A DNA stretch of 62,141 nucleotides, filler included, from Hausera hauseri (Eukaryota): NCBI GenBank assembly GCA_046269625.1. It is 12 parts of 12 records of this genome, joined end to end, with 100 filler letters (N's around TTAATTAATTAA, not from the genome) between each part and the next. Parts side by side here need not be neighbours in the genome. Positions count along the whole stretch, not along the records: positions 35,250 to 39,879 come from JBJURY010496797.1; 11 more parts are not named here. The stretch is one strand, 5' to 3'. Each line of letters opens with the position of its first letter. Within the stretch, counting starts at the first letter, position 1. The position numbers and the translations under genes were made by a program. Under the pieces are notes generated by a model. The model was not told the origin of the DNA and did no database searches. It was given only the letters and a program-made list of their open reading frames with translations. Positions 27,236 through 57,159 of this stretch are shown here, piece after piece.

Positions 27236-30200
27236 TTACATTAATGCAACATGCCCGTAAGTTAGTGTGCTTATTCCATCACCCAGGATCAGCCTTTTGT
27301 CATCCATCCAATCTAGGCTTTTCTTCTGTAATATTACTGCCTCCATGGTATGAGCCCTAGAACTCTGCATAACTCTAACATAGTTATTGAAGCCAATCTA
27401 TTTGGCTAGGGTCGCCCTCTGAATCCCTTTAGCCCGTTTCTTTACCTGGCCACTTACATCGATGACGTACATTTTTTATCTCAACGTCACGAAACGGGTG
27501 ATGATTTTCCCATTCACCTCGTCTTTAAACGTCCCGAGGACCTTGTTGGAGGTTAAATAATTTGGATGATCCTTCGGATAGTCCGAGGTATCCACATGTT
27601 GAGCCAACTTAGCAAAGTCCTCATAAATGTCCTCCGGATGGATTTGATAGATGAAACTATCAATATCCATATACATCAGCTCCACCTCCCTGAATTTGGG
27701 GACCATGATGTTGTAATGAAAATCATACATCAGGGTCTTTGACAAGTCCGGCTTGTTAAACTCCATGGATGTCTTGAGCATATGTATGCTCACCAGGTTT
27801 TCTGTATATATTGTGCTGGAATGGAAGTTGGGCTTGGCAATGAGCTTCTTTGCCCGCTTCCAGTCATACAAACTCGATATTTATCCTGTTTCAGGTGTTC
27901 TCCATCGTTTTGCCAAAGACCAAGTTGTTATACAACTTTAATTGGTCCTTTTTAAAGTCATTTTTGGCATTGGCCCTCAGCTGCGTGTTGAAGTCTATGC
28001 AGGGTTGCAACCACATAGACTGGTTAATTGATAGGGCACGATGGATCCTTGTGACTTTGACCCCATTCCTCATAGCCTGCTGGAGATTTATGTAGTGGGC
28101 TACATACCTCTCCTCATCGTCCAAGTGGCAAAACAACTTCTTGTGTTTCCTATTTGGTGGTTGCTTACTCTCCAGGAGAAAAGGGCAGTTGTTCATGCCT
28201 TGAGTAGATGCTATGGGGATATTCTAAATCCACTTTTAATATGTAGTCCGTATCTCCATTGGGGTCCATATCTTGTATTGACAGCTCTTCAGGATGCTCC
28301 GCCAACTTAAAATTGTCATAGGGCAATGGGGCACTCATTATCCATCCATATAAGTTATTTGCAGACAGGTATATTATATATGATGATTATCTGGATGTAT
28401 CATATTCTGCCACTATACCTGTAAATGGTCTGACAGATTCCTCGCCGAATACCTCGCTCGATTATTAGGATCATATCACAGTCCTTCAAGATCTGGAGCC
28501 GTATACTTGTATTGTGTAGCATCGCTGCCCAGCTCATTCCCGGAGCCGTGAAAAAACGAGCTGTGTCCAATTTGTGGCTCTTACGTGTAACATCCCTGAA
28601 GCTTTCAAATACATCTGCCAGCAGCAGCACATCTGTGAGGAGATAGATGTCATTATATTCCCCTATGGTCCTACATTTGAATGCTTTCCAGACATTTTGA
28701 GCATGCACGTTGTCCGCATCGCTGATGTCAGTGTCTGAAAGCCTGCTGTAAAAATCCTTCTTAGCAGGCAATTCCGTATCGTCAAGAAATCTCCATGACG
28801 TTATGTAGTAATAGGGGAATACTCCTTTCCTTTAGACTAAGCCAAATGTTGCCCGGAATAACCGCTTAGTTTCCTTGAACTCATCAGCTGGACGATTTTT
28901 GACCAGACTGTCAAGGGATGAGCTCATGAAGCGGAAACTGTATATGAAACGAAGCCGGATTCTTCCCACATGATTTGTGAATGTGACATATTTCTTCTCA
29001 CTGTTTGGGATCACATAGATGTTTCCTTTAATAGCCTCCAATTTACGAACTATGAAATGGGAATCATAGCCGCTGAAGTTGTGGAATGCCACGGGGACAT
29101 GTGTATGTTTTGCACCGTAAGTTGCAATCATTGCACTCGGCGCCTCGATACATGTCTGCTGTATGGCAATAATCTCGGATTTTGTGATTGTCTAATGTGA
29201 AGGATTTTTCACACAAGTAACACTGTGTTGCATTTTGCCATTCACATTTCTCCTTTTGCGACATTTTTATAATATTCGTACTCTGCTGCTGCATTTTTTT
29301 CTATCTTATGTGCAATTTCCTCCAAGCGTTTCATGAAATGAAGTGCTGCATCTGAACCCCGGTATAGGAATGGCTGCTTGTCCATTCCTAAAGCATACAT
29401 GCAGTATGATTACAGCTCATGATATTGGTAAGCTGTCGTGATGCTTTTCTGCGGATTCAGAGTGCAGCTGTGAACTTGGTTGAGGGTGGCCTCAAAGTCA
29501 CAATATATGACAATCGGCACCTTCAACATCTTTGCAAACTCTTTGAATTCCAGGAAATCCTCCTTGGGGAATTATCCTCCGATGCAATAGTTTGTATTGC
29601 AATAGGTCTTATGGCCCTTGAGCTTCTCTGCGACCATATCACCACTGAAATAGGATAGACATCGTTTGCAGATTTCCAGCCTTGACTTATGCTTAGATAT
29701 TTGGGATTCTACAAGGCGCTCAAAGTTCTTGATCCCAATGAAATGCCTCGTTTCTCCATCATCTAGCAGGATCAGATCTATATGATCCTCCAATTTTTCC
29801 TTTCACACATGTAAGGGATAAAATTTGTCCTCCTTTAATCCGAAGATGTTGATGGAGATGTTGTTCACGCTTTCAAATTTCACGACTTCATCTAGGCTCG
29901 GCGGGAATGAAATAGAGCAGAAGTGATATGTGTGCAGCACTTTGTCATATATCCCAACTCTGGAAGCATTATGTTAATCCTGGACCAGTTTTGACAAAAT
30001 AACATACACGAAACACATGCTGCCCTCATTATGGACATTGATGCATGCCTTTTTCTTAACTATCTATTCAGGAAGCGGTATGCAGGAGCTGCCTAGCAAG
30101 GGAGAATACTTGTGCACATGAACAGGTAACCCCTTTATTGCTGCTAGAGTCCAACCGCTCTTCTTATCCTGGATTTCTTTGGCTTCGCGGATGAACCCTG

Positions 30201-30846
30201 CATAGTCCTTAATAATAAAATCCTTAATGTTACAGGATTTCAATAGTAGCCTTTTCTCTGTCTTGAAGGCTCTACTAAATAGTTCTCGTTCAACATTGGT
30301 GAAGGTGGATTCCAATTTGAAGCTTAGCTTAAGGGCCTTCAGCTCCGACAAGTTGTTCTGGAGAATTCCAACTGCCTCCTCTTTTAAATATTCCAGGAAT
30401 TCGTGGAGAGATGTCTGCCCCACAGCGGCTATGGAATATCGCCACACTTTGCTCTTCAGTGCAATGGCATCAACTACTCGCTGCCGTTGACGTTTTCGTG
30501 ATACACTATTCGCTGCCACTGTGCCTCGTTTATGCTGCGCTAAGGATCTATTATGCAACACCGGGGATCCAGGGCTCTGTGCCGAGGTTGACGCTGCGGG
30601 GACTAGCAGCGATGCAGCTGTACAAGGCATAACCGGAACAATACCTCCCATGTGTGCAGATGTTGAAGGCGTAAGGGGAACAATGCCAGTCTTGAATATG
30701 GCCTTGTTGGACTTGGCCGTGAAATCGCACAAGTGGGTTTTATAAAATTCATAAAACTTACAGTATTCTTCGGTACTGACAGTTTCACATTCGAGGCATA
30801 TAAAATATTCTTCGCTGTTCCAAATCTGACCATAATATTTTGTCAT
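27236..30846 (-). pseudogene. Near full-length degenerate pPolB (Polinton/adintovirus-like)
   Basis: FHNFSGYDSHF, LLADVFESFR, ANNLYGW, KLYNNLVFGKTMEN, YMDIDSFIY, C-terminal DDKRLILGDGISTLTYGH. Confidence 0.92.
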
Positions 30847-35149: not shown

Positions 35150-37169
35150 NNNNNNNNNNNNNNNNNNNNNNNNNNNNNNNNNNNNNNNNNNNNTTAATTA
35201 ATTAANNNNNNNNNNNNNNNNNNNNNNNNNNNNNNNNNNNNNNNNNNNNGGTTTTATTTCACTTTTCTCTGTTTTGAAGATGTTTAAAAAACGCTTTGTA
35301 ACACTACTAACACATCACTGGTTCATATCTGTGTTAGAAGAAAGCTCTGTTGTTAAACCCAAATGTTTAAAATTCATAAAAACAAGCAATGGACAGCTGT
35401 TAGTCCCTGAGGGTTTTACTCATCTGCTCTTCCTCTGATGGTTTAACTCCTTGCTCCCTGCAGTAAAGCTTAGATTTTTAAGCACGTATCCATTTCCTTA
35501 CTTTTCCCTCCTCGCTGAGATGTGGGACCATTCATCATGTCTGTTTTCAGTTAATTGACAGCCCACCTCACACACTCCAGCCAAATCCGTATTCACACAC
35601 TTGGTATCCTATTACTTTTTCCACTCCTATCTTTCATGCCAAATCGTTTGAACTTTATATAGTTGGAGATGAAATCACCTACCCCCTGCCTGTAAATTGA
35701 ATTAGTGTTTTCCATTCATATAAAAATGCCGGGTAATTAATTTACCATTTCCGTGAAGTTGTTTAGGCAATGTTTTGCTAATGACGAAATTAGACAACTA
35801 ATTCTGTTTTGGTGATAACCATTTTGAACTATATGACTGTTTGTTATAGTACATATTAATTTTCTTGTTTATTTGTATTATTTAATTTTAAAATATCAAT
35901 AATCAATAATTAAACAATATTTAATATCTATAATGGCACGTAAACTTGAAATATAATCAGAAATCGCTATTTCGAAATTGTATGTTATTTATCATATTAA
36001 AAATTTTAAGTTGAATGGAAACAACATTTCGTGTTTCTTCAAATTCATCTATGATAAGTTGCATACTGATAAATTTGTAAGTAGTCAATAAACGCAGAAT
36101 ACTTTAGCGATGTCAAAAATAATACGCATCCTTATGAATAATGTCAACGAAATGGTTGTTAATAGTAAAAAGTGACATGAATGAACGAGCTGAAATTGGC
36201 TATTCATTAACTATAACAGATGGCAAGTGATGTCGACGGAATATTAGAGGTAAGATGCAGTAATTCTCCTTTCCGACGTAATGCAGTTTAGTGAGACACC
36301 CACGCAGCGCTGTCAATTAGATATTCGTCACAATGCCAACTGTTGTTTGCATTTCCCCACTACGACAAACACCACATAAATTTGAGTTTCATTAATTGAC
36401 ATATTTATTTACCCATAAACTATTTTGGATTGTTGTTAATGTAATTTTGATGTTGCTAGAGATTCGGTAGAGAAATAATAGTAATAATATAATATTGTTT
36501 TTTCGATTTTCTTCCTTTTGTAGCCTTCTATTTTCGTGGAATTTTAGGAGATTATTAGACATGTGCAATTCAGTATGTAGAAATGAGTATTTGAATAATA
36601 ATAAAATCCATTATTGATTTCATTGTGTATTTTAGTAATGATATGGCGTGATATAAGCTGACAAACTCTACTGCATAGTGTTGTATTGTATTGTATTGCA
36701 GCATTGCGGATTACTCATAATCATTTGGTGAGTCATTATTATAAATTGTGTAAAACCAACTGTGAGTAATGTGCAATTTGTTGACCACAGCAATTTCTAT
36801 TCAATTCCATTTTTTCACCAGAATTATGAACGGACTGTGTCCGATAAATCGTTCAATGAATGGCGTTTTATGCAACTCATGTGTAGATTATTCACTTCTG
36901 CCATTTCTCTGACAAACAAAATGGGCACTTTGAATCTTTCATTTATTGTAAATATCAGATTGACAAAAACAAATTTTCGTGATATAGATATTCTATTTAG
37001 GAGAAAATTTCGGATAAAAATAAACACTCAAATCTAAAATACAGCGTAAAATGAGAAAAATAGCATAGACAACATGGCTAAAAAATTGATTTATTGAATT
37101 ATTTACATATACAAAACATGTATGTTGGAATATTAAAACAAAAGTATATTTAGAACCTGAAATCACACT

Positions 37170-37975
37170 TATAAAACGATAGTTTGATGATGGAACACGA
37201 TGGAACAAGTTTTACTGAATAGAGTCCCGAACTTTTTTATCCATTCATTAATAGACACGGGGTTTTTACTGGCCAATTTATATGTTAGTTCATCGGTCTC
37301 CAATTCACAAAATGCGGATTCTGGAAATCTTTTTTGAAGGTTATGAATTGTCGTTGAAATACGGACACCAGTGATATTTTGGAAATCTATAAACTTCGCA
37401 CTGGATTTCGGGTCTTTCAAATCTGATGATTTGATTCAAATTAATTTGATGATTTGCTTGTGAAAATTTTACTTTTGGCAGCAATTATTTCATTTTTTGA
37501 CATTGTTTGAACAGAGTGAAGATAGTACAACAGCATTTGTTGAACCCTTTGTTATATTACTTATTCAAATCTGTATACCATAGCTTGTGATGAATAACAT
37601 CTAAATCAAATCGTCTTTTTTTGCCGATTCGGAAATAAAGTATGCTGACTTAATTTCCGCAATTCACCCGAGAAAGTTGTTTCGGGTGTTTGAACAGATG
37701 GATCGTCTTGTTTTGATATTTTGTCAAGATCTAGTCCTTCATTAGTAATATCACTACGTTTATTTGATTGCAAAGTCTGACTGGAAAATGCTGAAACTGG
37801 TGTTACAGTTTCTGATGTAGAAGTATGAGTTTGACTGTTGGTGTAATCGTCTTCTAATGTTGGTGAAAGATCTGAAAGCTCCTTTTTGGATTAATATTGC
37901 ATTCTTGGGGAAGATAATGAATACACTTGTCATGACACGTTACTTTACAATCAAAACATTTAAGAATTGAAGATC
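37170..37975 (-). pseudogene. Intronless host-gene fragments: C1 domain (~37890-37970), Ser/Thr-rich segment, PH-domain C-half (~37210-37420)
   Basis: LKCFDCKVTCHDKCIHYLPQEC; FIDFQNITGV..FCELETDELTYKLASKNPVSINEWIKKF. Confidence 0.65.
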
Positions 37976-38116
37976 CGTTTGGAGGTGATCGATTTTGACA
38001 GGACCCGGCGAAAGAGACCGGCAAGGCCCGAGGCATGGGACGCCACCGAAGCGACGACAGGCGCCCGACGTCGCCCGGCCATCCGGCCGCAGGGCGTACA
38101 AAAGGTGGGCACCACA
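37976..38116 (-). repeat. GC-rich LTR 5' cap related to 57090-57147
   Basis: TGTGGTGCC...GCGGCCG...CGGTCTCTTTCGCCGGGTC..AAAAT. Confidence 0.65.
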
Positions 38117-38506
38117 GTAACAATACGTTAATGGTGGATCAATATTGAAATTTGTCCATTTCAGGAGACACCTGACTGAATGAACAGCAATGACACTAAA
38201 AATGATTTGAAAGAGCGCCAGTTATAAAAAGTGATTAATGATACATTAAAACAAAAATTCTTAAAGTGAGCCATAAAAATTTTGCTAAGGTCACAAATTA
38301 TTAAACTTCTCTAACGAAATATCTAAACCTTTGCAAGAATTCTATCTATAACTAGTAAAACTTGATTAATAAATAAAGTATTGAAAAACAGGAAAACCAT
38401 AAACTACTATACGCTGATAAATTTTAATAATAAACGGTAGCATAATATTAAAATTAAGAAATCAATAAAATAGAACAAATTAAAATGAATTGAAAATGTC
38501 AAATAT

Positions 38507-39115
38507 TTATTCATGGAAAATACGATAATCAACACCATCCTTTGTTATAGCCCTAATACGAACAACACCACCACTGTGACCATCTCTACTTATTGCCAGG
38601 AAAACAGCCTTACGCACCATTTCTATACATTCTTCCTTATTCATATTTTCTCTGTATTCATTGTCCAAAAACCCATAAATGAAAGTACTACCCGATCCAC
38701 TGATTGCCACTGATTCTCGTTGCAACATTCCTCCAAGTGGAATTGAGTAAAGTTGACCACCTTTCACGTCATCATATCCACCTACAATTATCCCAGCAGA
38801 CAATCGATCTCTATATTCATAACAAAGATTTTTGAAAACAGTTGCAGCATGCAGAACAGTTGGTTCGGTATCAAATTGCATGGCATGCAAATTGAGGCGG
38901 TATTTTACTATGTCTGCCAATGCCTGAGTATCGGCTGCTGAACCTGATCGACAACAATAGATTGAATCTCGGAGTTTTGTCAATTTATCACTGACTCGAT
39001 TTGAAATATACGATCCTCCAGATGTTCTTGAATCGGCCCCAATTACTACACCACCATCGAATGCAATGGCAACTAATGTTGTTCCCATACTGATTGGTTC
39101 TGATGAGTTGTACAT
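38507..39115 (-). CDS. PSMB6: Proteasome subunit beta type-6 (beta1), 202 aa, intronless
   Basis: Propeptide ending MG|TTLVA (catalytic Thr1), GADSRTS, CRSGSAADTQ, SGSGSTFIYG, RDGHSGG; ATG at 39115. Confidence 0.93.
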   Translation of the reverse strand: MYNSSEPISMGTTLVAIAFDGGVVIGADSRTSGGSYISNRVSDKLTKLRDSIYCCRSGSAADTQALADIVKYRLNLHAMQFDTEPTVLHAATVFKNLCYEYRDRLSAGIIVGGYDDVKGGQLYSIPLGGMLQRESVAISGSGSTFIYGFLDNEYRENMNKEECIEMVRKAVFLAISRDGHSGGVVRIRAITKDGVDYRIFHE

Positions 39116-39979
39116 TTTGATTTTTGTTTTTAAATGATTTCGTTTAATATTGATTTGGAAACAATTTTTAATTTTCCACTTTTTCAATATTTTAATGCAT
39201 TTAAATATTTTGTGATTTATTAAATTAATTTATGTTTTAAATTTTTAATTTAATTTTATCTAAATTTAATTTAAAAAATTAATGAATTAAATTAAAAATG
39301 CATAAATTGAATTTAATTACATTTAATTAAAGGACGTGAAGTGATTATTCGAAAACTTACAAGCAACACTATTGGAATGTCCGTTTCAGAAGTCAATAAA
39401 ATTTGTCATGTACGCAGATATCAATTTTACAAGAATTCTACCAAAATTTTAGCTACAGTAATTTATTTATTTAAAAGATTTGTTTAAATTAAAAAAATTT
39501 TCTTCTATTCAATTTTGTTTGTGAATACTGAATGCAACTGGACGCTGAAATTATCAAATGTTGAACAGTAATACGCAATTTTATCATTCATAAATTTTGC
39601 ATTTATTGTGTGTGTGACATATTTGTCGTTGTGCATTGATGATTAGTTTGTTTGCATCATTATTACAGTATTGCATATGGATAATACATACAACCAAATT
39701 ATGATAACACCCCAACGCATTTAATCTGAACTTTCGTCGTGCAATTCCATTGTAGTACTTTTAGTATTATATTTGTGCTATTAAATTAGCCTTATATAAT
39801 AGTATCTGAGGGTTGAACTTTTGAGTTAGCTTTTTGCTCAAGTAGTTTAATACCAGCTTGATGCTGTTTTCTGTGTCTTNNNNNNNNNNNNNNNNNNNNN
39901 NNNNNNNNNNNNNNNNNNNNNNNTTAATTAATTAANNNNNNNNNNNNNNNNNNNNNNNNNNNNNNNNNNNNNNNNNNNN

Positions 39980-42880
39980 TTGACGAGCTCTGGTGTCCAA
40001 TATATAAGCTTTTTCTTCGGCCCTGCTCCTAGTTGAGCGAAAGGAGCAGTTAACTGACTGCAGTGTGGGACGTATTTATGGACAAAATGTAAAGTCCCAA
40101 GAAAACTGCGCATATCAGTAGTGGTTTTTGGTGTCTCTATGTTTCGTAGCTGATGGATTCTACCAGGCTCTGGACTGTGACCGTCAGGTGTGATGACGTG
40201 GCCAAGGAAATGTGCCTTTTTCTGAAAGAAGGAACATTTAGAAAAGTTCACTTGCAAATTGTGGTTGTGCAAGAGTTGGAAAACTAGTCTGAGATGTTCT
40301 TCGTGTTGTTTGGGTGATGCAGATGCGACTAGTATGTCATCAATGTTTGTATATAAAAATGGCAAGCCTGAAAGAACTGAGTCAATGTGCCGTTGGAAAG
40401 TTTGTGCTGCGTTCCTTAAACCAAACGGCATGAATGCGTATTCGAAAAGACTGTAAGGTGTTATAATGGCCGTTTTTGGTATATCTTCTGGTGCTACCGG
40501 TATTTGGTGGTAGGCTTTTTCGAGATCTATGGTTGAATAAATCGTAGTCTTGTATAACGAATGCAATATATCCTTAATCAACGGTAGAGGATAAGCATCC
40601 ATGGTAGTGATATTATTAAGTTGTCAATAGTCGCCGCATGGACGGAACGAGCCATCTTTCTTTGGGACGACGTGGAGTGGTGATGCCCATGGTGATTTAG
40701 AGCGTTTTATGATGCCGGCTTGCTCGAGTGCAGAGAATTCCGCTTGTACTGCCTGTCGACGGCGTGGTGAAAGTGGGCGGAGTTTCTGTTTAACGGGCCT
40801 AAAGTTTTCTGTGACGATGCGATGAATCGTCGTGTTAGCCGGTCGAAATTCTGGGTCTTTTTTATTGTGTGAAAACAAGACTTGACTAAGTATTGCTGCA
40901 TTTCTTGGCTAAGCATAGTAAAGGATGTTTTTGTCACGGCAATGGTTTGATTGGACTTAGCATGTGAAATGCTAGAGATTGAATCGTCTAAATCGTCCTT
41001 GTGAACGCTTTTTTGTTTCTCTGTTACTGAACTGTAACAAAATGTTTGATTATTTATATGGGTATTAATCGCGTCCTTATTTGCGTTAGTTGAAGGTTCT
41101 TTTAATATCGATTTTATAAGTGAAATAGGTTGCGTGACTTGTTGGTTATTTAAAGAGGTGGGTTTTGTTGGACTGCTCTTGATGATCTGACGTTGCCTAC
41201 AATCTACAAAGAGGTTGTAGAAAGATAGGAAATCAGATCCAAGTATTGGCGATTGTGTCGGCAACGATGAATGTCCAATTGAAAATGTCGGGGAATGATG
41301 GTTACGTGAATGAAACTTTGGATGTGCCAAAAATGTGTAAAGCTTGGCCGTTTGCCGTGTATAGTTTGATGTTAGACGGTGAGATGGATAGTGTTTTGAT
41401 GGATGGTGGTAATGAAGAAACAGTAGCTTCTGAGTCAATGCGAAAGTTGATTGGTTGATTTGAATTGGACGTTAAGGAGGCTTTTAATGTAAAAACAGCG
41501 TTTGTGCGGCTGTAGCAATTACGAGGGTAGCCTTTGCCAGCCTGCGCCGGAACATCTGGCGGCTTTATCAGTTTTTTGGATAGAAGGATTTGGTGACTCA
41601 GGAGAATTACGAATGGATTGGTTAAGTCGACTGGAAAACGTAAAACCGTCGACGCACTTCAGGGTTTTGTTGCCGAACCTATTATGGTAAATGCAAACGA
41701 TATCGGATTTTTGGAAGGCTTATGTATAGAATTTACACCCAAGGCAACATTTGCTGGATTGGTTTTTCAATTTATTGTGATAATAGCACATCATAGGTCG
41801 AGTAGGGGACCTAGCGAATCTAGAATTTTGTGATGAGGCACGGCTATGATTAGGTGTGAATCGATTTCGTCGCAGCATGGATAACTTGTCCAGTTTGGAA
41901 GTTAGAGCAGAAATGGCTTGGTGTATTGCAGTGTTTTCAGCTCGGCGAGTGTTTATTTGATTACTCAGCGCTAAGATTTCATCATTGTGTGGTGTTATAG
42001 GCGGTTGCAATGTGGCTTCGACGATAGGAGTATGATGTGTATTTAGTATATCGTAACTTTTATCAGCCAGTTGTGCTAACTTTTCTAACGTAGCGGTATC
42101 TTCAAATACTGTTAGTAAAGCGCGTATTTCCTTCGGTAGTGATTGAAGGAAATATCTGCGCAATAAATCGGCGTTATTGGTTTCATTTACTCCAAACTTG
42201 CTTAATTGAGTCAAGGATGTTTGTAAAAATTCAGATGGTTTTAATGTGCCTATTGTGTTTTCATTGAAATATTTCTGGATGATGTTACCAGATAAGGTTC
42301 GGTGAGTTTTAGTACGGCGTTGAAAAGTGTTTCGTATGGGTCTACTGTCTGAAAAATATCGGAAAGATTTGGTAGTAGTGACTTAAGGTTGGCTGGTAAA
42401 AGTATTAATAGGCTATTGGCTTTGAAGAAAGGATCACTGACCTTATTTGATTTTAACCACTGCGCATGGAATTCTAGCCATGTACGACTGGAGTGTTGTT
42501 TATTTGTAAAATAGTCGACACAAGTGAAATTGACCGAAGAGGATGCTGCAGGTGGGACTGAAGGAGACTACTTTAGCGTAACATGTATGGTGGGAATGTC
42601 AATAAAATCTTGTTGTTCCAGAGAAGATGCTTTTGAGTCAGATTTGCCTAGTAAACATTAATGTGCAGCTAGTATAGGCGTCAAAGATGAGCGTGTATAG
42701 TTGGTAATAATATCGGATTGCTGCACAAAGAATCCGTTAAAGCTGAGACGGAAATTAGTCTGTAATGCTTCTCGTTGTAGAGCCCCGAACAAATGTGCGA
42801 TGGTTGCTGTTTGGTGTATATAGTGTGTATGTGTGTTTATTTTTAAGTGAGAGTTAAAAAAGTGAAGTTTGCAAATATGT
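39980..42880 (-). mobile_element. Ty3/Gypsy (Mag-like) UBL-gag, protease and RT; degenerate; same family as 52640-57859
   Basis: SSRTWLEFHAQWLK, LLRRYFLQSLPKEIRALL, CYYHNK..C..GC, SPWASPLHVVPKKDGSFRPCGDY, MPFGLRNAAQTFQR, NIDDILVAS. Confidence 0.92.
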
Positions 42881-43284
42881 CGGGTGTGCAGATATGTTTA
42901 TTTTGTAATAGAAGAGAAATAAAGATGAAAGTGTGTGTCATTTTAGGGGTACAATGCGTCACCGGGGACAAGGTCGCACCAAAAGTCCCTATATCGTAAT
43001 GACTGATCTTTTTAACCAGAGGAATCGGAACGGCAGTCGAGCACGAGATCATTGGGTTTATTTGTTGTACATCACGTAACCGAATTGTTATTGACTGAAT
43101 AAAATAAGGTTGAGGTGGAATAAACCGTTTTTGAAATTTTGAAATTATCTTTATGGTTCCGATAGTCGATTTCGAAGTTTCGGGTTTGTTTATTCTAAAA
43201 TTCGATCGAAAATATTCAAAAACAGTTAGAAATTCAGCAATTTCAACATGGTGTAAATATTCACGGACATATATATATATTTAG

Positions 43285-43480
43285 CAAATGCTGAATATTT
43301 CGTCTGAAAATAGTTCCCTTAATGTATATATCTCCTTTTGATGGCAAACATTTTTCAGAAATAACATTTAATAGTGTTGATTTTCCACAACTATTCGGTC
43401 CAATAATAGCCGTAATGTTTAAATATTTAAAAATGGTCGATACATTACGTGGTACTGTTTTTCTCGGTGAATTGACTGTA
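43285..43480 (-). pseudogene. ABC transporter NBD fragment (Walker A)
   Basis: My translation: RNVSTIFKYLNITAIIGPNSCGKSTLLNVISEKCLPSKGDIYIKG. Confidence 0.8.
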
Positions 43481-44649
43481 AAATACTATTATACTGTCTC
43501 GACGACTCACCAATTTTATTGCCTGTCGATGAGTATTTTTCCAACGCCCTATAGGTATTTTCTGTCGCTTGCTCTTATTTTTTTAAGAAATTTGCGAATC
43601 ACATATTGTAGTTTGAAATCGGCGAAATTTCGAAGTAAAATCGGAATTATGTATATGCTGTGATGTGTTGATTAAATGGTATATTCAACCTTAACGTTAA
43701 ATGATATGGCTGAGTTTGTATTGACTCTGGTCACGATTAGCAAATACTTCACTAATGATTCATTGTTCTCAATAAACAGCGAGGTTTGGCCAATGTCAAA
43801 TATTGGGGAGGTACTTGAAATATGCATAAAATAATTTGCATTCTTGCCTAATCCGTATGTATAGGGATGGAGAATTTGCGATGTTAAAACGATGGATAAA
43901 TAGTACGGTAAGTTATTTGGGCTTATTCGAATTCGACAATGACCACTACGTATAATGAAATAGGATGTACGTGTATAACAAAATTCAAAAGTAGTGGCTG
44001 CCGAGAATGTATTAAAATTGTTAGAGTTTTTGATAAATTTGGGCACAACTTTTTATTTCCAATATATTTACTATATGCTACTGCAAAATATATAATAGTC
44101 TTACATAGTTCTCCTTTACTCAAAGCCACTTTTNNNNNNNNNNNNNNNNNNNNNNNNNNNNNNNNNNNNNNNNNNNNTTAATTAATTAANNNNNNNNNNN
44201 NNNNNNNNNNNNNNNNNNNNNNNNNNNNNNNNNTGTAAGAAATAAGTAAAATAGCTGTTGTAGTTTCGTAAAACAGTGCAGCTTGAGCTAGTTTAGTAAA
44301 TATGGTTTAGAACCAGTTTTTTAAAGAGAATAGTTTGTATCGGCCTTTAAAAAGGTACAGGCCGATGTTGGGTCCTCTGGAGTCAGTACTCCTTTACTTA
44401 TCATTCGTTTATGGAGGAAACATTCGAATTTCACATTTGTGACTTTTAGGTCAGACACAGTAATGATAAGAGAGAATGGAGTTGACTGTAAGGTTATGTC
44501 TAGTTCTTTGATGACTTTCTTTTATACTATTTGTGTGGTCACTATTCTTGTGACGACATGTATGATGCTGGTCTTATTAGGGTAGTTGTTGTTATTTCTT
44601 TTGGAAATCTTTCTATTATATCTGGTCCCTCTGATGCTTTTGACCATGT

Positions 44650-46519: not shown

Positions 46520-49258
46520 GATGAATTTGAGTGATACTTGGTTTTTCTTATTTTCTGTATTGGATGCACATTTCCGTTATCATTAAAGTGGTCTTTATTA
46601 TATTTTTTTGTATCCATTCAGCGTCCTTCTTTATTAGGAAACAAGTGGCTAAGAACAGAATCAGAACGTGGATAATTTTCCATGTACATCCTACAGCCTG
46701 TTTTATGCCATAGCCTTTGGTTATCATAGTACGGATTGTTTTTACAAAGGCGAATATAACAGAATCCTAACCATCCGGAATTAAACTGGCCAAACAACAT
46801 GTACCATCCCCATGCGGTAGCGAATATGTCTAGCGATTCTTCTTGCGTATTCGGGTCCCATCAGGTTTTCCCAATTAGCTTTTCCATCGTGATCGGCTAG
46901 AACTCTTCCATTTCTGTTGACTTTCAGTCTTTGTTGAGGAAACATCATTCTTCTATGGTTTTCCATATCTTGTTCAGAATATACGCACATCTTTACTAAA
47001 TTCATGTCAGGCTTATACTGTTGTTCAGTCTTTAAATTGATTCAGCTAATTCTTCGAGGCGGGATAATCTGCTCCTCTTTAGGCATTCGAAATGCTGGCG
47101 ACTTCCTATACGTACAATTTTGGTATATGTATAGTTTTCCACAAGATCCAACAGTATTCGAATAATTGGTTGTAAAAATCGTGGCTTGGTATTATACCAA
47201 ACTGATAATTCCATGATGCATTCATTAATTGGTCTTATCTTGACAGTTACTCTAGTACACTCGAACGTTACAAGAGTTCCTTCCATTGTTCGTGAAAATT
47301 TTCCTTCTGCATCAGGTAATTCAGCTTGATCCTTTATTATCCCATCCGTTATTGTGGACATATATATCCTGTTTCTGATTATTTCTCTGTTCAGCTTGCA
47401 ATCATTTAATACTATTTCTCCATACATAACATAAATATTCTCTTGTTGAAAGTGATAAATGAAATGAATCTTGTCAAAATATAGATGCGGTTTCACTTCT
47501 GATTTATCAATTTTTCTTTTTACTTCTTTTATTTTGATTGCTGACAAAAATATTCCTTTATAATTTGTTCGATATACTACTTGTGCGCATCTGTTCGTAT
47601 CACATTCTATTTTGAATTTCATTCCTTCTCTGGGATTCGCTGAATATACAGTGTCGCTCAAATTAATTGCATAATGATAATTTTGGGATAAGTTGGTGGT
47701 ATCTGTATTAGTTTTACGTGGTTTTCATATTTTTAAACATTGAAAGCAAGGTAGTTGTGTAAAATAATTGAATAAGTTGTATAAATGAGAATCAAATAAT
47801 TTTATTTTATTCGGTTTCTGCGTACGTTCAAATTATTTGCATAATTTGTGGTTTTAATGTTTTCCACGCAATGGATACACTCATAGCTACACAATAGTTG
47901 ATTACTAAGAAGTTTCATGAATGACCCAAACAGTTATTGCGTAGGAGTTACATCAGATTCAAAGTAGTGTTTCGCGTATTATTTCACGCTACAAATTCCA
48001 TAGAATTGTTCGAGATCTGAGACCAGGAAAATGTGAATGAAAACGATTTCTCTCACCCTGAACAGACCGTCTGCAAGCACGTGCTTCTAAGAATAACCCC
48101 AAAGCTACTGCTGCAAATATACAAAAGGCAGTTGGTTGTCAAGCAAGTACAGTGAGCCTCCCCGCTATCAGACGCTCACTTCGTCGCTCAAATCGATTGG
48201 AATAAACAGATCTCAAATCACTAACTTAGGTTTCTCGAATTCGTGTTTGTCTCCAATGGTGCCTTGTGCATCGTTATGTCAGTAGAGGATTGGAAAAAAG
48301 TATGACGAATTTTTAGAATAATTTTTAAAGATTTTTAAAAGAATTATTTTTCTAAGCTTACAATTCACTATATGGAGGTTGTGTTCACTGATGAGAGTAC
48401 TGTAGATGTGAACCCTGCGCACTCTCAGTTTGTACGACGCGGTCAAATGAGTCATTAAGTCTCGTGCATACCTCGCAACATCGTCCATATGTTCCTAGAG
48501 TCATGTTCTGGGGTTGGACGCTCGATCGTATCTGATATTCGATCCTGTCTGCTTTTTGATATTTCCTCTATACATTCGTCTTTTTGTTTCATTGAATTTT
48601 CCATTTCTCAATAAGGCTAGTTGACATTGATCCTTGTCAACTTCATATGCCATTATCGATTTACCCGTATTACATTCTTCATTGTAGTAATCACACTCAG
48701 GGAATGTCACCATTTTTCCTGATGATAATTCAAAAAGAGCATCATACTCTCAGCTCAACTTGGTAGTCCTCAATGGTTACCATATCGAACATTTCAACAT
48801 TTATATTGTAAGATTCTCCTTTACAATAGCCTGTTTTATCAATTGTTCCGACTATGAAAATTCTCTTATTGGTAACTTCTTTTTTGAGCCTTTAACCGAA
48901 TGCTACCGATGTTAATTTGTTTTGTCACAAAAACTATGCACATCCATTTACTTATCGAAAGTGGCTGGAATGGGGTGGTTGGCTCTACTATGGCTGCGTT
49001 TCCGTACCAGTAACCGCAAATAAAGTGGAAGTGATTCTTTCGTACAAAAGATTCTTTCGCTTTAGTTTTTACAAATTCTGACTCTTGGTAAACAATATTC
49101 TTTTAGTTAATGATGTCGGATTAGCGTACGGGCATTTTTCTAAATCCAACAGAAAATATATCGGAACTTCTTTGACTTGACTAGTCATAAGCAATAATTG
49201 AAGATGATCTTGACATGAAATTAAATAACAGAAGTATGTGTAGAATTTTAATTACCAT
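46520..49258 (-). pseudogene. Complete-length degenerate chuvirus-like glycoprotein, interrupted by an insertion at ~47649-48500
   Basis: MVIKILHILLLF..IIAYD; CAQVVYRTNY; CIMELSVWY..FLQPIIRIL; VYSEQDM..MMFPQQR; WGWYMLFGQFNSGWLG; C-terminal hydrophobic segments. Confidence 0.85.
47649..48200 (+). mobile_element. Tc1 5' fragment (TIR plus HTH region) inserted at TA in the glycoprotein gene
   Basis: TA|CAGTGTCGCTCAAATTAATTGCAT; SSVSRIISRYK..KNNPKATAANI..IRRSLR; copy A is uninterrupted at the equivalent site (~14410). Confidence 0.75.
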
Positions 49259-49259
49259 A

Positions 49260-51720
49260 GGCAGATCAAGATCAGATTACTGATTATGCTGTCTTTCTTG
49301 CTAGGGGTGTAGGTTTTCTTTTTGCCTGAACAACAGGTGCATAATCTTGTACCGTTGTTTGAATGAAACTATTGATCCATCTCTGCACTTTACTTACCTT
49401 TCTACATTAGTTGTCAATGCTCTTGTGGCTATTCCTATACTTTTTCTATTTCCTTGGTTTGAGTTCGAACCATTCATCACCATTATTTTATACAGGAGAT
49501 ATGATGTAGCTGTTATAATTTTACTTCTAGACATGCCTGTTCCCATCATTCTAGATAGTACATCTCTCTTGTATCTCACTTATTTTCTCATCTATAGGAA
49601 TATCTGCAAATTGCTCACTGATTTTTATTTCATTTATGCTTATCTGCATCAGTGAGTCTGGTATTTGTAAGTTTGTATTAAACTCAACAAACGCATTGTG
49701 CATTCTAGTTAACAAAGTTTGCAGTAATGTTGGCAATGAAACATTACCTTCATCATTCTCATCTTGAGTTATTAATAATCTTCGAACAACTTCATCGTCT
49801 CTTGCTTTTCTGCCTTTTAGTTGCTAGAGTTTTGTTATGCCTTTGGGTCTACCTCGATTTTTTCTATCAATTTGAGTCTGTTCTGATATAGGAATATTTG
49901 TTTCAATTCCTGTCTGCTGAACTTCATAATTTGGTTAAGTTTCTTATATCTTTCTGCCTAAATTCAGTAAGGGTTTCATCATTTATTTTTTGCCTAATTT
50001 GTCTGAAGGCAATTGCAAACAGGATCATATCTGGTTTCCCGCATACGTACTTCGCATATGGTTTCGTAACATAAGTGTCCGTTTATAAAAACGTAGTTCT
50101 AGCTCTCCTCGAGACTGGATTACCTCGTTAATCTTGTTTTTCAATGTAATTATCGTATATGACGACTTCATCCTTATAGCACGAAGGTCCTGATTGTGCA
50201 GTTTGAGAGTAACTACTATTTGAGGCTTTTTCCGACCGGTCTAACTCTTTCTGCATACCGATAAATTATATATCGTACAGGGTTTTGATGTGGACTTATC
50301 AGCAGCATATATTAGGAATAAGTTTAATAAATTAACACTGTTGATAGCTAACCGCAGGCAACAATAACATCGAAATAACCTGTCTGAATTGTTTGTCATC
50401 AATTAATTCTTGGTTAGCATAGCTTGATATTTTCCGAACTATTTCTGTACTGTTTTGATCCAAATCCACAAATAAGGTTTCTCCCTATTGTGCTGCTATT
50501 TTGACTTTCTTGTTTCTTATTCACTTTATCTTTTCACTGTTTATTTTTCATGCTTCCTTTACTTCCAGAAGGCAAATAGGGAATTTTTAAATGTTCTCTT
50601 ATAAAAGGTTTATCTTTTCTTTTGGCCTTTTGCACTTCAGCATCTGATTCTGAGGATAGATCCTTTCAAGTCTGACTACGGGAACAATAATTGAATTATT
50701 GTTATTCATTTTGTGTCGTTTTTCACAAATTTCTTGTTGCTTTAATTCTAACTATAGCACCTTTAATTCACCTACTTTATCTTCATCATCTATCATATTC
50801 GTTTTATAATCCTTCAATTTAGCTCTAACCTTTTGCTGCAGCTTTTCTACAGTATCCTCTGGTTCGGTATCCGGTTTCCTGTTCATTATCTGTAACAGAT
50901 ATATTACCAATCATCTCAATATTTTTCTTTTTCATGTTTGGCTGCCCTTCGTTAGGACAAGAACGGGCCATGTGTCCATATTTCTGACAGGCAAAATATA
51001 ATTTTTGTCCATTCTGATTAACCATTGGTTTCCTCATTGCTAGTTTTTGAGGCTGACTTTGAAAAGTAACCATCTAAGGGTGTCCTGGCCGGTTCTGAAA
51101 TTTTTTCAATTTCTCATCATTTTAGGAGGCCTTTGAACATTTTCAAGCCTTCCATACTTAACTTCAATCTTTCTGACTTTACTGACAGCTTCTTTATAAG
51201 TGTCAGGGTCAACAACACTAATATAATTCTGAATTTCTTTTGTTATTCCGTACAAGAACTGGTCTTAGAGAGCATCTTCTCTTATGTCTTCATCTGTATC
51301 GGCTGTAAGCCCATTTCTGAAGGACACATGCATATTCTTGCACGGTATCGCCTTTTCGCTGACGTCTGTTGAATTTCCCAATTCAACCTTTTCCTGACGG
51401 ATCTACTATGAGTTTTTCCTCCATGAGCTCTAAGGCTATCCCAATCAGCTTTATTCTGATCCTCTACTTTTGCGTAAGAACTGAGTGCTATCTTTGAGAT
51501 GAAGTGGAAGGCGTTTTATCCTGAGCTCGTCTGTCCATCCAAAGCTTTCTGAGTACATGTGGTACTGCATCAGGAATTTGCTGTAGTCCTGGTCTGGTTT
51601 GCCTTTCAATTTGTTCATCGACAAAACAATTGTGCATTCCTACCTAAGCTAGCACTTAATCCTAAACTAGACATCTGGGGTTTTTCTTATTCAGACCCGG
51701 ATGGTCTTCTAGCCGAGTCC
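49260..51720 (-). pseudogene. Copy B of gag-linker-UBL-AT-hook-helical region
   Basis: Collinear with 15200-17700; FACQKYGHMARSC; RKNRGRPKG. Confidence 0.8.
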
Positions 51721-52639: not shown

Positions 52640-53779
52640 ATGCATATGGGATTGTCTACGGCATATCGTCATCGTAGAATCGACAGCCTAAAACACATTT
52701 CCTTGCATCTCTGCAAAATTTGTTATGATAAAAGCACATTATTTTATCATCTCTAGATTTAGAACGAGAAGAGTGCCTAAAAACCTGCGATTACGAGAAA
52801 TACGATTTTCGCTTCCTCTAGGCACGGATAAGTCACGGAGTTGGGCTGTGATCGCAGAAATTGCTTGTTGGTGGGTATCAAATTGTTTCTGCATTATGTT
52901 TAGTTGTTGTGCAAAAAAGTGTTGTCTGGCAGTGTGTAAGCAGTTTGCTGCGACTACTGGCTGCGAGTTATTAGACTGCAGAATATCAAAGATTTGTCTG
53001 CCAATAAGGCGACCTTTTCGAGAGCAGTAGAGTCATCTACTACAGTAAGCAAAGCTCGAATAGAGGTTGGCAAAGATGAAAGGAAATACCGATGAAGAAG
53101 ATCGACACTGTTTGTGGCAGTAACGTCCAAAGAGCTCAATTGAGAGATGGCAGTTTTAAGGAAATCCGATGATTTTTTTATTTCCGATGGCGTGTTCGTT
53201 AAAATATTTCTGGATTATGCTGTCGATGGAAGGGTCGGTGATATGTAGAACCGATTCATACAGCATATCATACAGGCTTGAAGAAGAGAATGTCAGCCAG
53301 ATTACTGATTTGCTGTTTGATGTTGGCTTGGAGTAATAGCAGCAAACTGTTAGCCCGCAGAAAGGGATCTGTAATATGATTAACTTTAAGCCATTGTAAA
53401 TGGAACTGTAGCCAGGTACGACTAGAATTCGTCTTGTCTAGAAAAAAATCCGTGCAGGGGAGATTTGGAGAAGTTGTTGGTGTGGTGTCGACAGGACGAC
53501 GACCAGATTTAGTCTTTGTTAAGTGTTCGATAGAAGGATCAAGGTCTGATCCACCACGGATGCGAAAATGGACAGTGAGAGTGATGGAATATTTCTCGGG
53601 TGCAAAAGATGAAAAAGAATCGTAAGGTTGCAAAGTTAGACCGTTGTGCATAAGATAAAAATTGGAGGAGCCAAAAAAAGGACCATTCAGTATAGAGAAT
53701 ATGAGCTGTTTGTTTGTGCGCAACCCTTAATGTGTGGATATGTTTAGTATTAGTAAAGATTAGAAAAGAAAAGGGACAT
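52640..53779 (-). pseudogene. Gag with an N-terminal ubiquitin-like domain ending RIRGG (53550); frameshifted
   Basis: FLIFTNTKHIHTLRVAHKQT..NFYLMHNGLTLQPYDSFSSF..TLTVHFRIRGG|SD; SSRTWLQFHLQWLK; CFYHNKFC..KCVLGC. Confidence 0.8.
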
Positions 53780-54305: not shown

Positions 54306-56204
54306 TCATAATCCTATAGTGCAGTCGTCTGTAGTTGCAGAAATAAATCGTAATAATCCAAATAAGGCGTAGGATTTGAAAGTATCCGTTTTATGTATAC
54401 GATTATTCAAATATGTTTGAAATAATTCGTTAATGTAATTAACTCTCAGATATGACTTACCATTACTGTTTAATATTGTACTCGCTCTGAAGTTTCTTGA
54501 CCCTATCATCCATTCCAACCAAAATGTTGACTGATACGGACGAGTAACGTTGTATGTGATCGGTTTTAGAGAACACGACTTTTCAGTATTAATTGATTCT
54601 TTTAAGTGATTTAAGTTTGATTGAAGATGTTTGAAAAGAGACGTAAGACAATCTGTAATATTTCGAAACGACAATAAGTCTTTAGGCCTTATGTTTGGTT
54701 TCAGTGGTTTGCAAAACTTGACTGTTTCTACGTCCTTTTCGGTTAATAAATTAAGTAGTATGCAGAACATTAAATCCGAAACAGGAAATTGTCTAACCGA
54801 TAAAATTTGTTTAGTACATTTAAAAAATGAATCAAAAACGCTCAATTCATTTGTGCAATTCAATCCATCATTGCTTATTATGTTTTTAATGTCACTGTGA
54901 TCACAATAATTGTAATAAATAATGTAATCTATAACTGCTGTTCCAAATGTATAAAGTCCGGGAATATCGAGTGCTGAATAAGTCCTTACACCATTTAGAT
55001 CGTTTATGTAAGCAGTATCAACGCCAAACTGTTTGTAATGATCTTTAATATGAAAGTCCAATGCAAAAAAGATGATATTCCTAATGAACATTTGTTGATT
55101 TTTAGATTTACCAGGATTGATAGCAATTATGTTACCTCTGAGAACGTTTATAGCTTTATTAGCATGATTATTTAAAATTGGTAAAACATAGTATGGTGGT
55201 TGAACATCACCGATTTCATTATTGGTTATAGTTTTATTTTCATTTAATATTCCATTGTGCTGCGCTACAATGACATCAGATAAAAACTTTTTGGTATATG
55301 TTTTATATTCTTCACACATTATACTAAAACTCTCTTTGATAGCAATTCTGTCTTTGGATTTTAAACAACTAGAAAAATTATAATTATTGAGATTTTGATG
55401 AATAATTATTTCACAATATATCACATTTACCTCTTCTTTATCGTTATTTGAATCCAAATCATGAAACAAATCACTGCTTTCAAACGCCAATCCCGTACAA
55501 AAATTAGCTGAATTAACACCGTTTTGAATTTCTCGAATAAGACATTGAAAAAAGTTATTGAACGTTTCATAGCTTTCCATATCGATTGCATACACACTTG
55601 TCATTTCGGGGTGTGTTACGTGCGGATATACAATGGTCATTAGAATGATATTATTTCGTGTCTTTTTATTTTCGTACAGTATTGCTATTTCATGGTTTAA
55701 TGCTTTCTTCAATGGACAGTAATACTCATACACATTGTATATGAATTGCTCACAATTAACTGCATCGCCTACTGCAACGTCCTCCGCCAATTTAACAATA
55801 TCATAATGCCCATTATCCATTTTCTGAAGAATTCTCAATGGTTTGGTAAAGGCAAATTTTTCAATGACAAAATTGTAGATGTCGCTAAGAGTTTTGCTAC
55901 GAGAATAGCAACAAGTTACTTTGTTTTCTTTTCCACAAATAGAAATAGTAATGTTCAATGGTTGAACCTCAACGGTGTAACTATCGTGACTGAGTATCAC
56001 AAATCTTTCGAAAAGTTCTTGGTTATCACAATCCAGTTTGTATGTTTTCACAAGATATTTCCAAACTTCTTCCGGTACCAAATCGTAGTGATCATTCAAC
56101 AACATATCACCATTAACTTCTTTTGTTGCATCAAGCAATTTGCTGTTACTAATTGGTGGCAAATTTTTTCTTGTCATCCGTAACAAATATTTAAGTTGAT
56201 TCAA
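54306..56204 (-). CDS. Chimeric 632-codon ORF (first ATG 56177): USP4/11/15 DUSP-UBL, phosphagen kinase, CLU, BACK and probable further fragments
   Basis: PPISNSKLL..YDLVPEEVWKYLVKTY..VEVQPL; PLKKALNHEI..VYAIDMESYETF; GNIIAINP..QMFIRNIIFF..NDLNGVRTY..GLYTFGTAVIDY; NIISNDGLNCTNELSVFDS. Confidence 0.75.
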   Translation of the reverse strand: MNQLKYLLRMTRKNLPPISNSKLLDATKEVNGDMLLNDHYDLVPEEVWKYLVKTYKLDCDNQELFERFVILSHDSYTVEVQPLNITISICGKENKVTCCYSRSKTLSDIYNFVIEKFAFTKPLRILQKMDNGHYDIVKLAEDVAVGDAVNCEQFIYNVYEYYCPLKKALNHEIAILYENKKTRNNIILMTIVYPHVTHPEMTSVYAIDMESYETFNNFFQCLIREIQNGVNSANFCTGLAFESSDLFHDLDSNNDKEEVNVIYCEIIIHQNLNNYNFSSCLKSKDRIAIKESFSIMCEEYKTYTKKFLSDVIVAQHNGILNENKTITNNEIGDVQPPYYVLPILNNHANKAINVLRGNIIAINPGKSKNQQMFIRNIIFFALDFHIKDHYKQFGVDTAYINDLNGVRTYSALDIPGLYTFGTAVIDYIIYYNYCDHSDIKNIISNDGLNCTNELSVFDSFFKCTKQILSVRQFPVSDLMFCILLNLLTEKDVETVKFCKPLKPNIRPKDLLSFRNITDCLTSLFKHLQSNLNHLKESINTEKSCSLKPITYNVTRPYQSTFWLEWMIGSRNFRASTILNSNGKSYLRVNYINELFQTYLNNRIHKTDTFKSYALFGLLRFISATTDDCTIGL

Positions 56205-57089: not shown

Positions 57090-57159
57090 AATTTGAATTT
57101 CTCGACTCCGGCGAGGAAAAGACCGCGCCCACGGCCGCGGCACCACATCACCTCCCCCC
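57090..57159 (-). promoter_or_regulatory. Polypurine tract (57148-57159) and start of LTR (TG at 57147)
   Basis: GGGGGGAGGTGA|TGTGGTGCCGCGGCCG just downstream of the integrase end. Confidence 0.8.

What the first reader, a model, noticed from the sequence alone, without database searches (positions are those of the whole stretch)
37170..38116. Same LTR cap, different host-gene cargo
Seen: a GC-rich island starting TGTGGTGCC shares ordered blocks (GCGGCCG; CGGTCTyTT..TCGCCGG.GTC; AAAT) with the PPT-defined LTR start at 57147. It then runs directly into sense C1 and PH fragments unrelated to the cargo of contig 11. No PPT precedes it, as expected for a 5' or solo LTR. Inference: independent evidence that this family has a conserved cap plus hypervariable host-derived interior.
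Basis: partly seen in the sequence, partly recalled or inferred. Interest (0 to 1): 0.7.

Follow-up and report, generated by a model that had tools for sequence, protein, structure and literature searches.

The report
Retrotransposon ends stuffed with host genes
In an unidentified animal, a group of jumping genes keeps only a short fixed start to its terminal repeats and fills the DNA behind it with changing scraps of the host's own genes, a twist on a gene-capture process already known from flies, mice and maize.

Summary
Real, on the minus strand, and mostly as read. 38116 is an LTR start: in a public run 16 contigs leave the window exactly there, with a purine-tract consensus. The 120-bp GC-rich cap is far deeper than what follows, and two contigs of a second run leave at the cap's inner edge, so other copies carry other interiors. 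C1 and PH are not separate scraps: they are the 3' end of one Sbf/MTMR5-13 gene (by-eye match), cut at the cap, multi-copy, with an unnoticed 148-bp antisense SERCA piece inserted between 10-bp repeats. A resident gene hit by an insertion is not supported. Corrections: this cap and the one at 57147 are distant relatives, not one family; 7 of the 9 shared first bases also open the LTR of an element from another assembly, which likewise has a host fragment (CLN6) behind its cap; the AAAT block is Sbf sequence. All belong to a CsRn1-like gypsy lineage with a ubiquitin-like Gag head. Not shown: the LTR's far end, a matching target duplication, a two-LTR copy. LTR gene capture is known, and this scan noted interior capture in ray genomes; capture directly behind the LTR start appears to be a new variant.

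The parts
37997..38116 (-). GC-rich LTR start (cap), 120 bp, 71% GC, begins TGTGGTG
   Evidence: 16 contigs of run X1 have loose ends behind 38116, agreement 0.46, consensus opening with a C run (a G-rich tract on the minus strand); depth 413-542; X3 records 20 and 21 leave the window at 37997 and 37998; GC
37884..38000 (-). C1 zinc finger of an Sbf/MTMR5-13-like gene, lacking its first third; its first kept Cys codon overlaps the last bases of the cap
   Evidence: Pfam C1_1 E 7e-6, profile 17-52/53; donor by eye against supplement 5 of PMC2927912; overlap
37681..37883 (-). Ser/Thr-rich linker between C1 and PH, in another frame than C1
   Evidence: translation; one X1 contig replaces 37806-37882 by 8 letters
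37564..37680 (-). first half of the Sbf-type PH domain, split over two frames
   Evidence: translation compared by eye with MTMR5/13 C-termini; PDB search of 37560-37649 found nothing
37416..37563 (+). 148-bp insert holding an antisense piece of a SERCA calcium pump gene (residues about 57-99, frameshifted), between 10-bp direct repeats at 37564-37573 and 37416-37425
   Evidence: PDB: all 18 hits SERCA in each of two searches, best E 2.5e-4 and 0.008; repeat; one X1 contig of depth 7.2 skips exactly this stretch with 10 letters fitting both sides, and X1 record 6 spans its junction
37169..37423 (-). second half of the PH domain and stop codon
   Evidence: ESM Atlas PH clusters; motif spacing equal to the invertebrate Sbf entry; X1 records of depth 22.5 (1 difference) and 7.9 (6 differences, 3 gaps)
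36929..37168 (-). distal repeated segment with AATAAA at 36947-36942; best candidate for the LTR's far end (..CAAA at 36929), without a matching target duplication
   Evidence: X1 record 2 (depth 13.5) leaves the window at 36929; record 3 shares 36941-37108 and then differs; sequence
36766..36773 (-). alternative far end: CACA at 36773-36770 followed by TTAC, which also precedes the cap (38120-38117)
   Evidence: chance about 0.04; not backed by X1, which barely covers 36742-36929
38507..39115 (-). left neighbour: intact intronless proteasome beta-1 gene ending 390 bp before the cap; single copy
   Evidence: Pfam Proteasome E 2e-49; best named relatives about 65% identical; X1 record 7, depth 9.18, spans gene, flank and cap junction; distance
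57096..57159 (-). contig 11: polypurine tract (57159-57148) and the related, shorter cap (57147-57096)
   Evidence: integrase match at 57848-57585
54306..56177 (-). contig 11: open chimeric frame (622 codons from the first Met) with DUSP, arginine-kinase N-terminal, CLU and BACK pieces, between cap and gag
   Evidence: Pfam E 7e-7, 5e-8, 4e-12, 6e-4; PDB arginine kinase and USP11; no relative of similar length
52692..53726 (-). contig 11: decayed gag with a ubiquitin-like head ending RGG and a CX2HX9CX3C knuckle
   Evidence: motif at 52736; SDE2 ubiquitin-like domain E 0.018; homologous to contig 9 gag
43264..43485 (-). contig 9: ABC-transporter P-loop fragment upstream of a gag of the same type
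   Evidence: Pfam ABC_tran E 9e-10, profile 3-51/137; knuckle at 41788

Best explanation
36929-38116 is a solo or 5' long terminal repeat of a CsRn1-like Ty3/gypsy lineage whose Gag carries a ubiquitin-like head. The LTR's first 50-120 bp (integrase end plus GC-rich cap) are kept; the U3 region behind is replaced piece by piece with host sequence. Shown: LTR start at 38116, cap end at 37997, several copies of cap plus cargo, other copies with other interiors, two donors here. Inferred: reverse transcriptase, copying U3 just after its first jump, switched onto a co-packaged Sbf mRNA (3-4 shared bases at the cap junction) and back; because U3 is copied into both LTRs, the piece was fixed in one cycle and spread as a small subfamily. 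A second capture then put antisense SERCA into the PH at a 10-bp repeat, by another switch or by repair-type templated insertion. This copy is decayed and makes no protein; most cargo is probably neutral passenger DNA, with small-RNA effects on donor genes possible.
For: Only 390 bp with stops in all frames lie between cap and proteasome gene. No primer-site motif between cap and 36929. Two donors. Same layout in contig 11 and in L004 from another assembly: tract, TGTGGTG cap, CLN6 fragment E 6e-13, ubiquitin-Gag E 4e-5. Mechanism precedent: PMC5131818 passages.
Against: No element with two LTRs was seen. The read-backed end (36929) has no target duplication; the end with one (36770) has no read backing. 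The distal segment is shallow (17), so only the 5' end is shared widely. Summed contig depth is not copy number, and tables 3, 7, 8 were cut (40 of 205, 24 of 397, 32 of 660 rows shown). X3 pieces have depth 2-7. Antisense cargo and a duplicated 10-mer do not fit a simple mRNA switch. In L004 and contig 11 the LTR's end is also unknown. Sbf identity is by eye; three searches found no relative. Contig 8 has a foreign left end, so misassembly occurs here.
Confidence: 0.64

Rival explanations
1. A short cap-only element (a miniature LTR of about 120 bp) inserted into the C1 exon of an Sbf copy, and cap plus the downstream gene end were later amplified by read-through transduction or DNA duplication.
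For: C1, linker, PH and stop are collinear parts of one gene; cap copies leave at 37997-37998 as a short element's end would; CTGT flanks the cap on both sides and the left flank reads Thr-Tyr-Cys-Tyr.
Against: The boundary in X1 is 38116, not the CTGT register; the left flank is single copy and holds no Sbf body; no joint skips the cap; the cap's inner end has no target duplication with TTAC; contig 11 and L004 show the cap directly behind tract and integrase of full elements, followed by AT-rich interiors.
Confidence: 0.14
2. The LTR is short and the host pieces sit in the internal region or leader of non-autonomous derivatives (classical LTR-mediated retroposition, as in Bs1 or fly retrocopies), with a primer site too changed to see.
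For: Known CsRn1-like LTRs are 146-383 bp in the rows seen; internal replacement is the usual layout; contig 9's ABC piece and contig 11's long frame lie upstream of gag, where a leader would be.
Against: C1 begins at the cap's last bases, leaving no room for R, U5 and a primer site; no motif found; in contig 11 and L004 host pieces lie behind a tract-defined 3' LTR start.
Confidence: 0.15
3. The arrangement is an assembly chimera of a repeat cap and unrelated gene pieces.
For: 35250-35714 is absent from X1 but matches long contigs of X2 and X4 almost perfectly; the window is a set of 4-9 kb contigs.
Against: The flank-cap junction (X1 record 7), cap-C1 junction (X3 record 19) and SERCA-PH junction (X1 record 6) each exist in public contigs. 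Only the right-hand end could be a false join.
Confidence: 0.05
4. One reading: a resident C1-PH gene (MRCK, citron, PKD or Sbf itself) merely hit by a short insertion.
For: One donor gene accounts for C1 and PH.
Against: The gene body is missing upstream (390 bp to the next gene); the piece is multi-copy, frameshifted and interrupted by SERCA; an X1 contig of single-copy depth lacks the insert and another differs at 6 sites, as a separate resident gene would.
Confidence: 0.02

Closest known systems
LTR-mediated retroposition in animals (Tan et al. 2016, PMC5131818; passages read)
   Same: Partial host sequences joined to LTR-element sequence at short shared stretches, several donors in one chimera, further copying of the chimera.
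   Different: In their 15 fly cases the host piece replaced part of the internal ORFs; here it starts at base 120 of the LTR, differs between related elements, and one piece is antisense with a duplicated 10-mer.
CsRn1 clade of Ty3/gypsy (PwRn1, AgCR; PMC2582038; passages read)
   Same: CX2HX9CX3C Gag knuckle, polypurine tract, TGT start, candidate AAA end.
   Different: LTRs there are 146-383 bp in the rows seen, with a tRNA-Trp primer site; here at least 1.19 kb, no such site found, ubiquitin-like Gag head, host pieces.
Plant gene-capturing LTR elements: Bs1, TRIMs, BARE-2, Sireviruses (review PMC13317346; passages read)
   Same: Multi-donor capture, chimeric ORF formation (Bs1), foreign sequence entering an LTR by abnormal switching (BARE-2), captured pieces as siRNA sources.
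   Different: BARE-2 took retrotransposon sequence, not host genes, into its LTR; the passages seen describe no lineage with turnover of host genes behind a fixed LTR start.
Burro giant gypsy elements of planarians (review PMC6431247; passages read)
   Same: Animal gypsy elements with host-like domains, including a ubiquitin/SUMO-like motif.
   Different: Burro's domains sit in a stable giant polyprotein and accessory ORF, not behind the LTR start, and its Gag knuckles are CCHC.

Membership tests
LTR of a Ty3/gypsy element | 5' end TG(T) directly behind a polypurine tract in 3' copies | tested here: met
   Contig 11 and L004 directly; for the contig-8 cap through the loose-end consensus of 16 X1 contigs, agreement 0.46
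LTR of a Ty3/gypsy element | Dispersed copies beginning at the same base with different flanks | tested here: met
   Boundary at 38116 in 16 X1 contigs and X3 record 20; flank single copy
LTR of a Ty3/gypsy element | Defined 3' end and target-site duplication | tested here: inconclusive
   36929 backed by one X1 contig but no duplication; 36770, 37749 and 36445 give TTAC pairs without read support
LTR of a Ty3/gypsy element | Two direct copies flanking gag-pol | not testable with these tools
   No genome held; contigs 4-9 kb; cap not found in two collections
CsRn1 clade | Gag knuckle CX2HX9CX3C | tested here: met
   Contigs 9 and 11, 4 of 6 fetched loci; contig 8 itself has no gag, so its link is through the cap only
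CsRn1 clade | tRNA-Trp primer site TGGTGA(G/C)CCCG(T/A) | tested here: not met
   No match with fewer than 3 mismatches on the minus strand of contigs 8, 9 or 11; 44 matches window-wide against 48 by chance
CsRn1 clade | 4-bp target duplication; LTR ends TGT..AAA or TGT..ATA | tested here: inconclusive
   5' end met; candidate 3' end CAAA at 36929 without duplication
CsRn1 clade | Placement in a reverse-transcriptase tree | not tested
   No reference set fetched; contig 9 RT is 51% identical to L005, which has the canonical primer site and knuckle
One family with the element of contig 11 | About 80% identity over the LTR | tested here: not met
   Only blocks of 7-20 bases align; no blastn hit at E<0.05
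LTR-mediated retrocopy | Short shared sequence at the junctions | tested here: inconclusive
   10 letters fit both sides of the SERCA insert; 3-4 bases overlap at cap/C1, donor DNA not in hand
LTR-mediated retrocopy | Loss of introns against the parent gene | not testable with these tools
   Parent genes not available; the neighbouring resident gene is itself intronless
Sbf / MTMR5-13 (donor) | C1, linker, PH, stop at the C-terminus with Sbf-type PH motifs | tested here: inconclusive
   By-eye match to supplement text: same order, same spacings of 23 and 22 residues in the PH second half, about 18 of 63 identical to the invertebrate entry, about 14 of 36 in the first half to MTMR13; no computed score; searches blank

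The most novel reading that the evidence does not exclude
A lineage of ubiquitin-Gag, CsRn1-like retrotransposons, present in more than one animal, uses the U3 region of multi-kilobase LTRs as a standing gene-capture cassette: host pieces are added and swapped behind a fixed cap, duplicated into both LTRs each cycle, and at times fused into long open frames (622 codons from four or more donors in contig 11) that are expressed and selected, making the LTR itself a factory of chimeric genes and of small RNAs against host genes.
Probability: 0.28. Interest if true: 0.82.

Novelty: new variant of a known kind. Interest (0 to 1): 0.62.

Why it matters
Gene capture by LTR elements is established, but as occasional replacement of internal sequence. 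Here four related elements (contigs 8, 9, 11 and L004) each carry different host pieces, at least eight donor types in all, three of them behind a recognisable LTR start. If these lie in U3, every capture is doubled and left behind in solo LTRs, scattering sense and antisense copies of essential genes through the genome, as with plant Pack-MULEs. That makes testable how often template switching captures mRNA in animals, whether such pieces silence their donors, and whether chimeric ORFs arise inside LTRs. The ubiquitin-like Gag head is a second unexplained trait of the lineage.

Tried and rejected
Own first idea, a 120-bp insertion into an intact C1 between CTGT repeats: dropped, because X1 places the boundary at 38116 and no joint skips the cap. 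Treating the 148-bp insert as an intron: GT..AG removal does not keep the PH frame (by eye), and it is SERCA. A 368-bp solo LTR ending ATA at 37749: the linker frame and X1 depth run through it. Conserved RNA structure in the caps: z 0.27 and 0.90; Rfam 0 matches in 36600-38300; no tRNA in the window. Donor searches that failed: PDB with the PH half gave only designed repeats and a ligase, representatives search gave 6 repeat-type hits, C1 against longer proteins none, PDB for 37560-37649 and 36732-37034 none, single-sequence fold pLDDT 40, not searched further, NCBIfam nothing useful for 11 pieces. Pfam on 100 short frames named only C1 and ABC convincingly; none of 18 frames in 56200-57150 was identified. 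ESM Atlas had no hit for the gag head. Cap pattern: 0 matches in metagenome and viral contigs. Earlier notes on this genome or sequence: none. Literature: searches returned no paper on host fragments turning over inside animal LTRs or on ubiquitin-like Gag heads in gypsy elements (75: 0 papers); the library lacks most subscription journals and Repbase reports. PMC3320571 passages were no use; PMC3601003 was seen as a listing only.

Full report
Setting. The window is 12 contigs joined by N-linkers; no whole genome is held. The finding lies in contig 8 (35250-39879) and reads on the minus strand. The host is an AT-rich animal: its proteasome beta-1 has best named relatives at about 65% identity, and one cargo piece is closest to arginine kinases. 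I did not place it further.

The observation. TGTGGTGCC occurs only at 38116 and 57147, both minus. At 57147 it follows a G-rich tract behind an integrase end; at 38116 it does not. The inner blocks are present in order. Their significance is modest: 429 or 53 of 5000 shuffles in local alignment, 1 of 20000 when anchored, 114 of 20000 with five first bases fixed. A control changes the reading: L004, a metagenome contig whose reverse transcriptase is 50% identical to that of contig 9, also opens its LTR with TGTGGTG and a GC-rich cap. With seven bases fixed, caps 8 and 11 still beat shuffles (92 of 5000), while neither beats them against L004 (1243 and 900 of 5000). So caps 8 and 11 are related somewhat more than the lineage background, but they are different families. 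The interiors of contigs 8 and 11 share nothing. The caps have no special RNA fold.

Is 38116 an LTR start? Contigs of four public runs were laid on contig 8 at 80% likeness (4 of the 6 runs listed). In X1, 16 contigs leave the window exactly behind 38116; their consensus begins with a C run, that is a G-rich tract upstream of TGTGG on the minus strand, with agreement only 0.46, as a mix of 3' LTRs and unrelated flanks would give. Depth is 9 at 38126, 413-542 in the cap, 92-122 in C1, 17-46 over the rest down to 36970, and about 5 further left. Summed contig depth is not a copy number, but the steps are large. Eight X1 contigs diverge inside the cap at 38049 (a second cap subfamily). In X3, of three listed pieces touching the cap, two leave at 37997 and 37998 with 16 and 131 unlike letters, and one runs from the cap into C1 and the linker. 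That is direct, if shallow (depth 2-7), evidence for one cap with different interiors. The tables were cut (32 of 660 pieces, 24 of 397 loose ends, 40 of 205 differences shown). X1 may be close to the window's source, yet at nine listed interior sites all its contigs differ from the window.

What the cargo is. Pfam finds C1 from profile position 17, so the first third is missing and the domain starts at the cap's last bases. ESM Atlas supports PH for 37172-37435; Pfam does not. Supplement 5 of PMC2927912 (passages) shows MTMR5 and MTMR13 C-termini and an invertebrate entry, probably the Nematostella one, ending C1, Ser/Thr linker, PH, stop. By eye the window has the same order, the same spacings (23 and 22 residues between motifs) in the PH second half with about 18 of 63 identities, and about 14 of 36 in the first half. 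No computed score backs this, and three searches found no relative. I take C1 plus PH as the 3' end of one Sbf-type gene. It is broken by frameshifts; X1 lists indel differences beside two of the breaks. One X1 contig of depth 7.2 skips exactly this stretch, and another spans its junction, so both forms exist.

Resident gene hit by an insertion? Not supported. Only 390 bp with stops in all frames separate the cap from an intact single-copy proteasome gene, the C1-PH piece is multi-copy, and none of the 9 listed joints removes the cap alone. A contig of depth 7.9 with 6 differences and 3 gaps over the PH could be the resident gene (inference).

Where does the LTR end? Unsettled. X1 record 2 (depth 13.5) leaves the window at 36929, just after AATAAA and ending CAAA, which fits the TGT..AAA ends reported for CsRn1-like elements (PMC2582038 passages) and gives 1188 bp, but the flanks do not match. 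An end at 36770 gives TGTG..CACA with TTAC on both sides (chance about 0.04) but X1 hardly covers 36742-36929. No tRNA-Trp-type primer site lies behind the cap. The distal part is far shallower than the cap, so only the 5' end is widely shared. The left end of contig 8 (35250-35714) belongs to another organism, so a false join on this side is possible.

The lineage. Contigs 9 and 11 hold related gag genes (53% identical over the aligned piece) with the CsRn1-type knuckle and a ubiquitin-like head (SDE2, E 0.018). L004 has the same head (Pfam ubiquitin, E 4e-5) and, 590 bp behind its LTR start, a frameshifted CLN6 piece (E 6e-13, profile 18-79 of 280). Contig 11 has an open frame of 622 codons joining DUSP, arginine-kinase, CLU and BACK pieces with no relative of like length; contig 9 has an ABC-transporter piece before gag. 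Whether those lie in LTR or leader is not known; L004 ends before a second LTR, and the other five fetched loci showed no cap.

How it most likely works. U3 is copied first after the initial strand jump and then into both LTRs (established retroelement biology). Integrase needs only the terminal bases, so the start is kept while the sequence behind can be swapped by template switching onto co-packaged mRNA, as shown for internal regions in flies and mice (PMC5131818 passages). The sense Sbf end fits that; the antisense SERCA piece with a duplicated 10-mer needs an antisense template or DNA-repair insertion. These steps are inferred. This copy is dead as a gene; neutral carriage is likeliest, donor silencing by small RNAs is possible (reported for maize captures in PMC13317346 passages).

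Novelty. Capture by LTR elements is known, and two earlier notes of this scan describe interior capture in ray genomes (not checked). Searches gave no paper on turnover of host genes directly behind the LTR start in animals or on ubiquitin-headed Gag in this clade; the library omits most subscription journals, and a figure supplement of PMC2582038 on LTR termini was not seen. Verdict: new variant of a known kind, interest 0.62, limited by the missing far end and the lack of a two-LTR copy.

Noticed in passing
window 54306-56177 (-): 622-codon open frame fusing DUSP, arginine-kinase N-terminal, CLU and BACK pieces between an LTR start and gag; no relative of similar length found.
   Followed up: partly
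window 53544-53726 (-), 42600-42900 (-); L004 about 1055-1290: Ubiquitin-like head on Gag ending in a di-glycine (RGG in contig 11, LGG in L004), resembling the cleavable SDE2 domain; might let a host deubiquitinase release Gag (inference).
   Followed up: partly
L004 5853-7171: Element from another assembly with the same LTR start, a GC cap, AT-rich repeats and a decayed CLN6 fragment.
   Followed up: partly
window 35250-35714: Absent from X1 but nearly identical to long contigs of X2 and X4 at depth 20-24: DNA of another organism at the end of contig 8.
   Followed up: partly
window 43264-44052 (-): ABC-transporter P-loop fragment and a further unidentified 126-codon frame upstream of the contig 9 gag.
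   Followed up: partly
window 37806-37882: 77 bp of the linker are replaced by 8 letters in one X1 contig; may be a third insert or a deletion variant.
   Followed up: no
window 36732-37034 (+): 101-codon open frame over the distal segment; no Pfam, NCBIfam or PDB match.
   Followed up: partly
window 47035-47724 (-); 14425-17613 and 48521-51619: Viral fusion glycoprotein piece (Pfam Monjiviricetes_fusion, E 6e-12) in contig 10, which shares 3.2 kb at 69% identity with contig 4.
   Followed up: no
window 58626-61568 (-): Intact 980-codon LINE frame with endonuclease and reverse transcriptase.
   Followed up: no
window 2753-3679 (+), 5061-6697, 28866-30496: Protein-primed DNA polymerase B piece in contig 1; a 1.6-kb stretch shared at 66% by contigs 2 and 6 holding an endonuclease VII-like motif.
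   Followed up: no
window 38507-39115 (-): Proteasome beta-1 gene with no intron over about 200 codons, suggesting an intron-poor host genome.
   Followed up: partly
window 39280-39879: High-copy repeat region in X1 (depth 160-570) upstream of the proteasome gene, with many small deletion variants.
   Followed up: no
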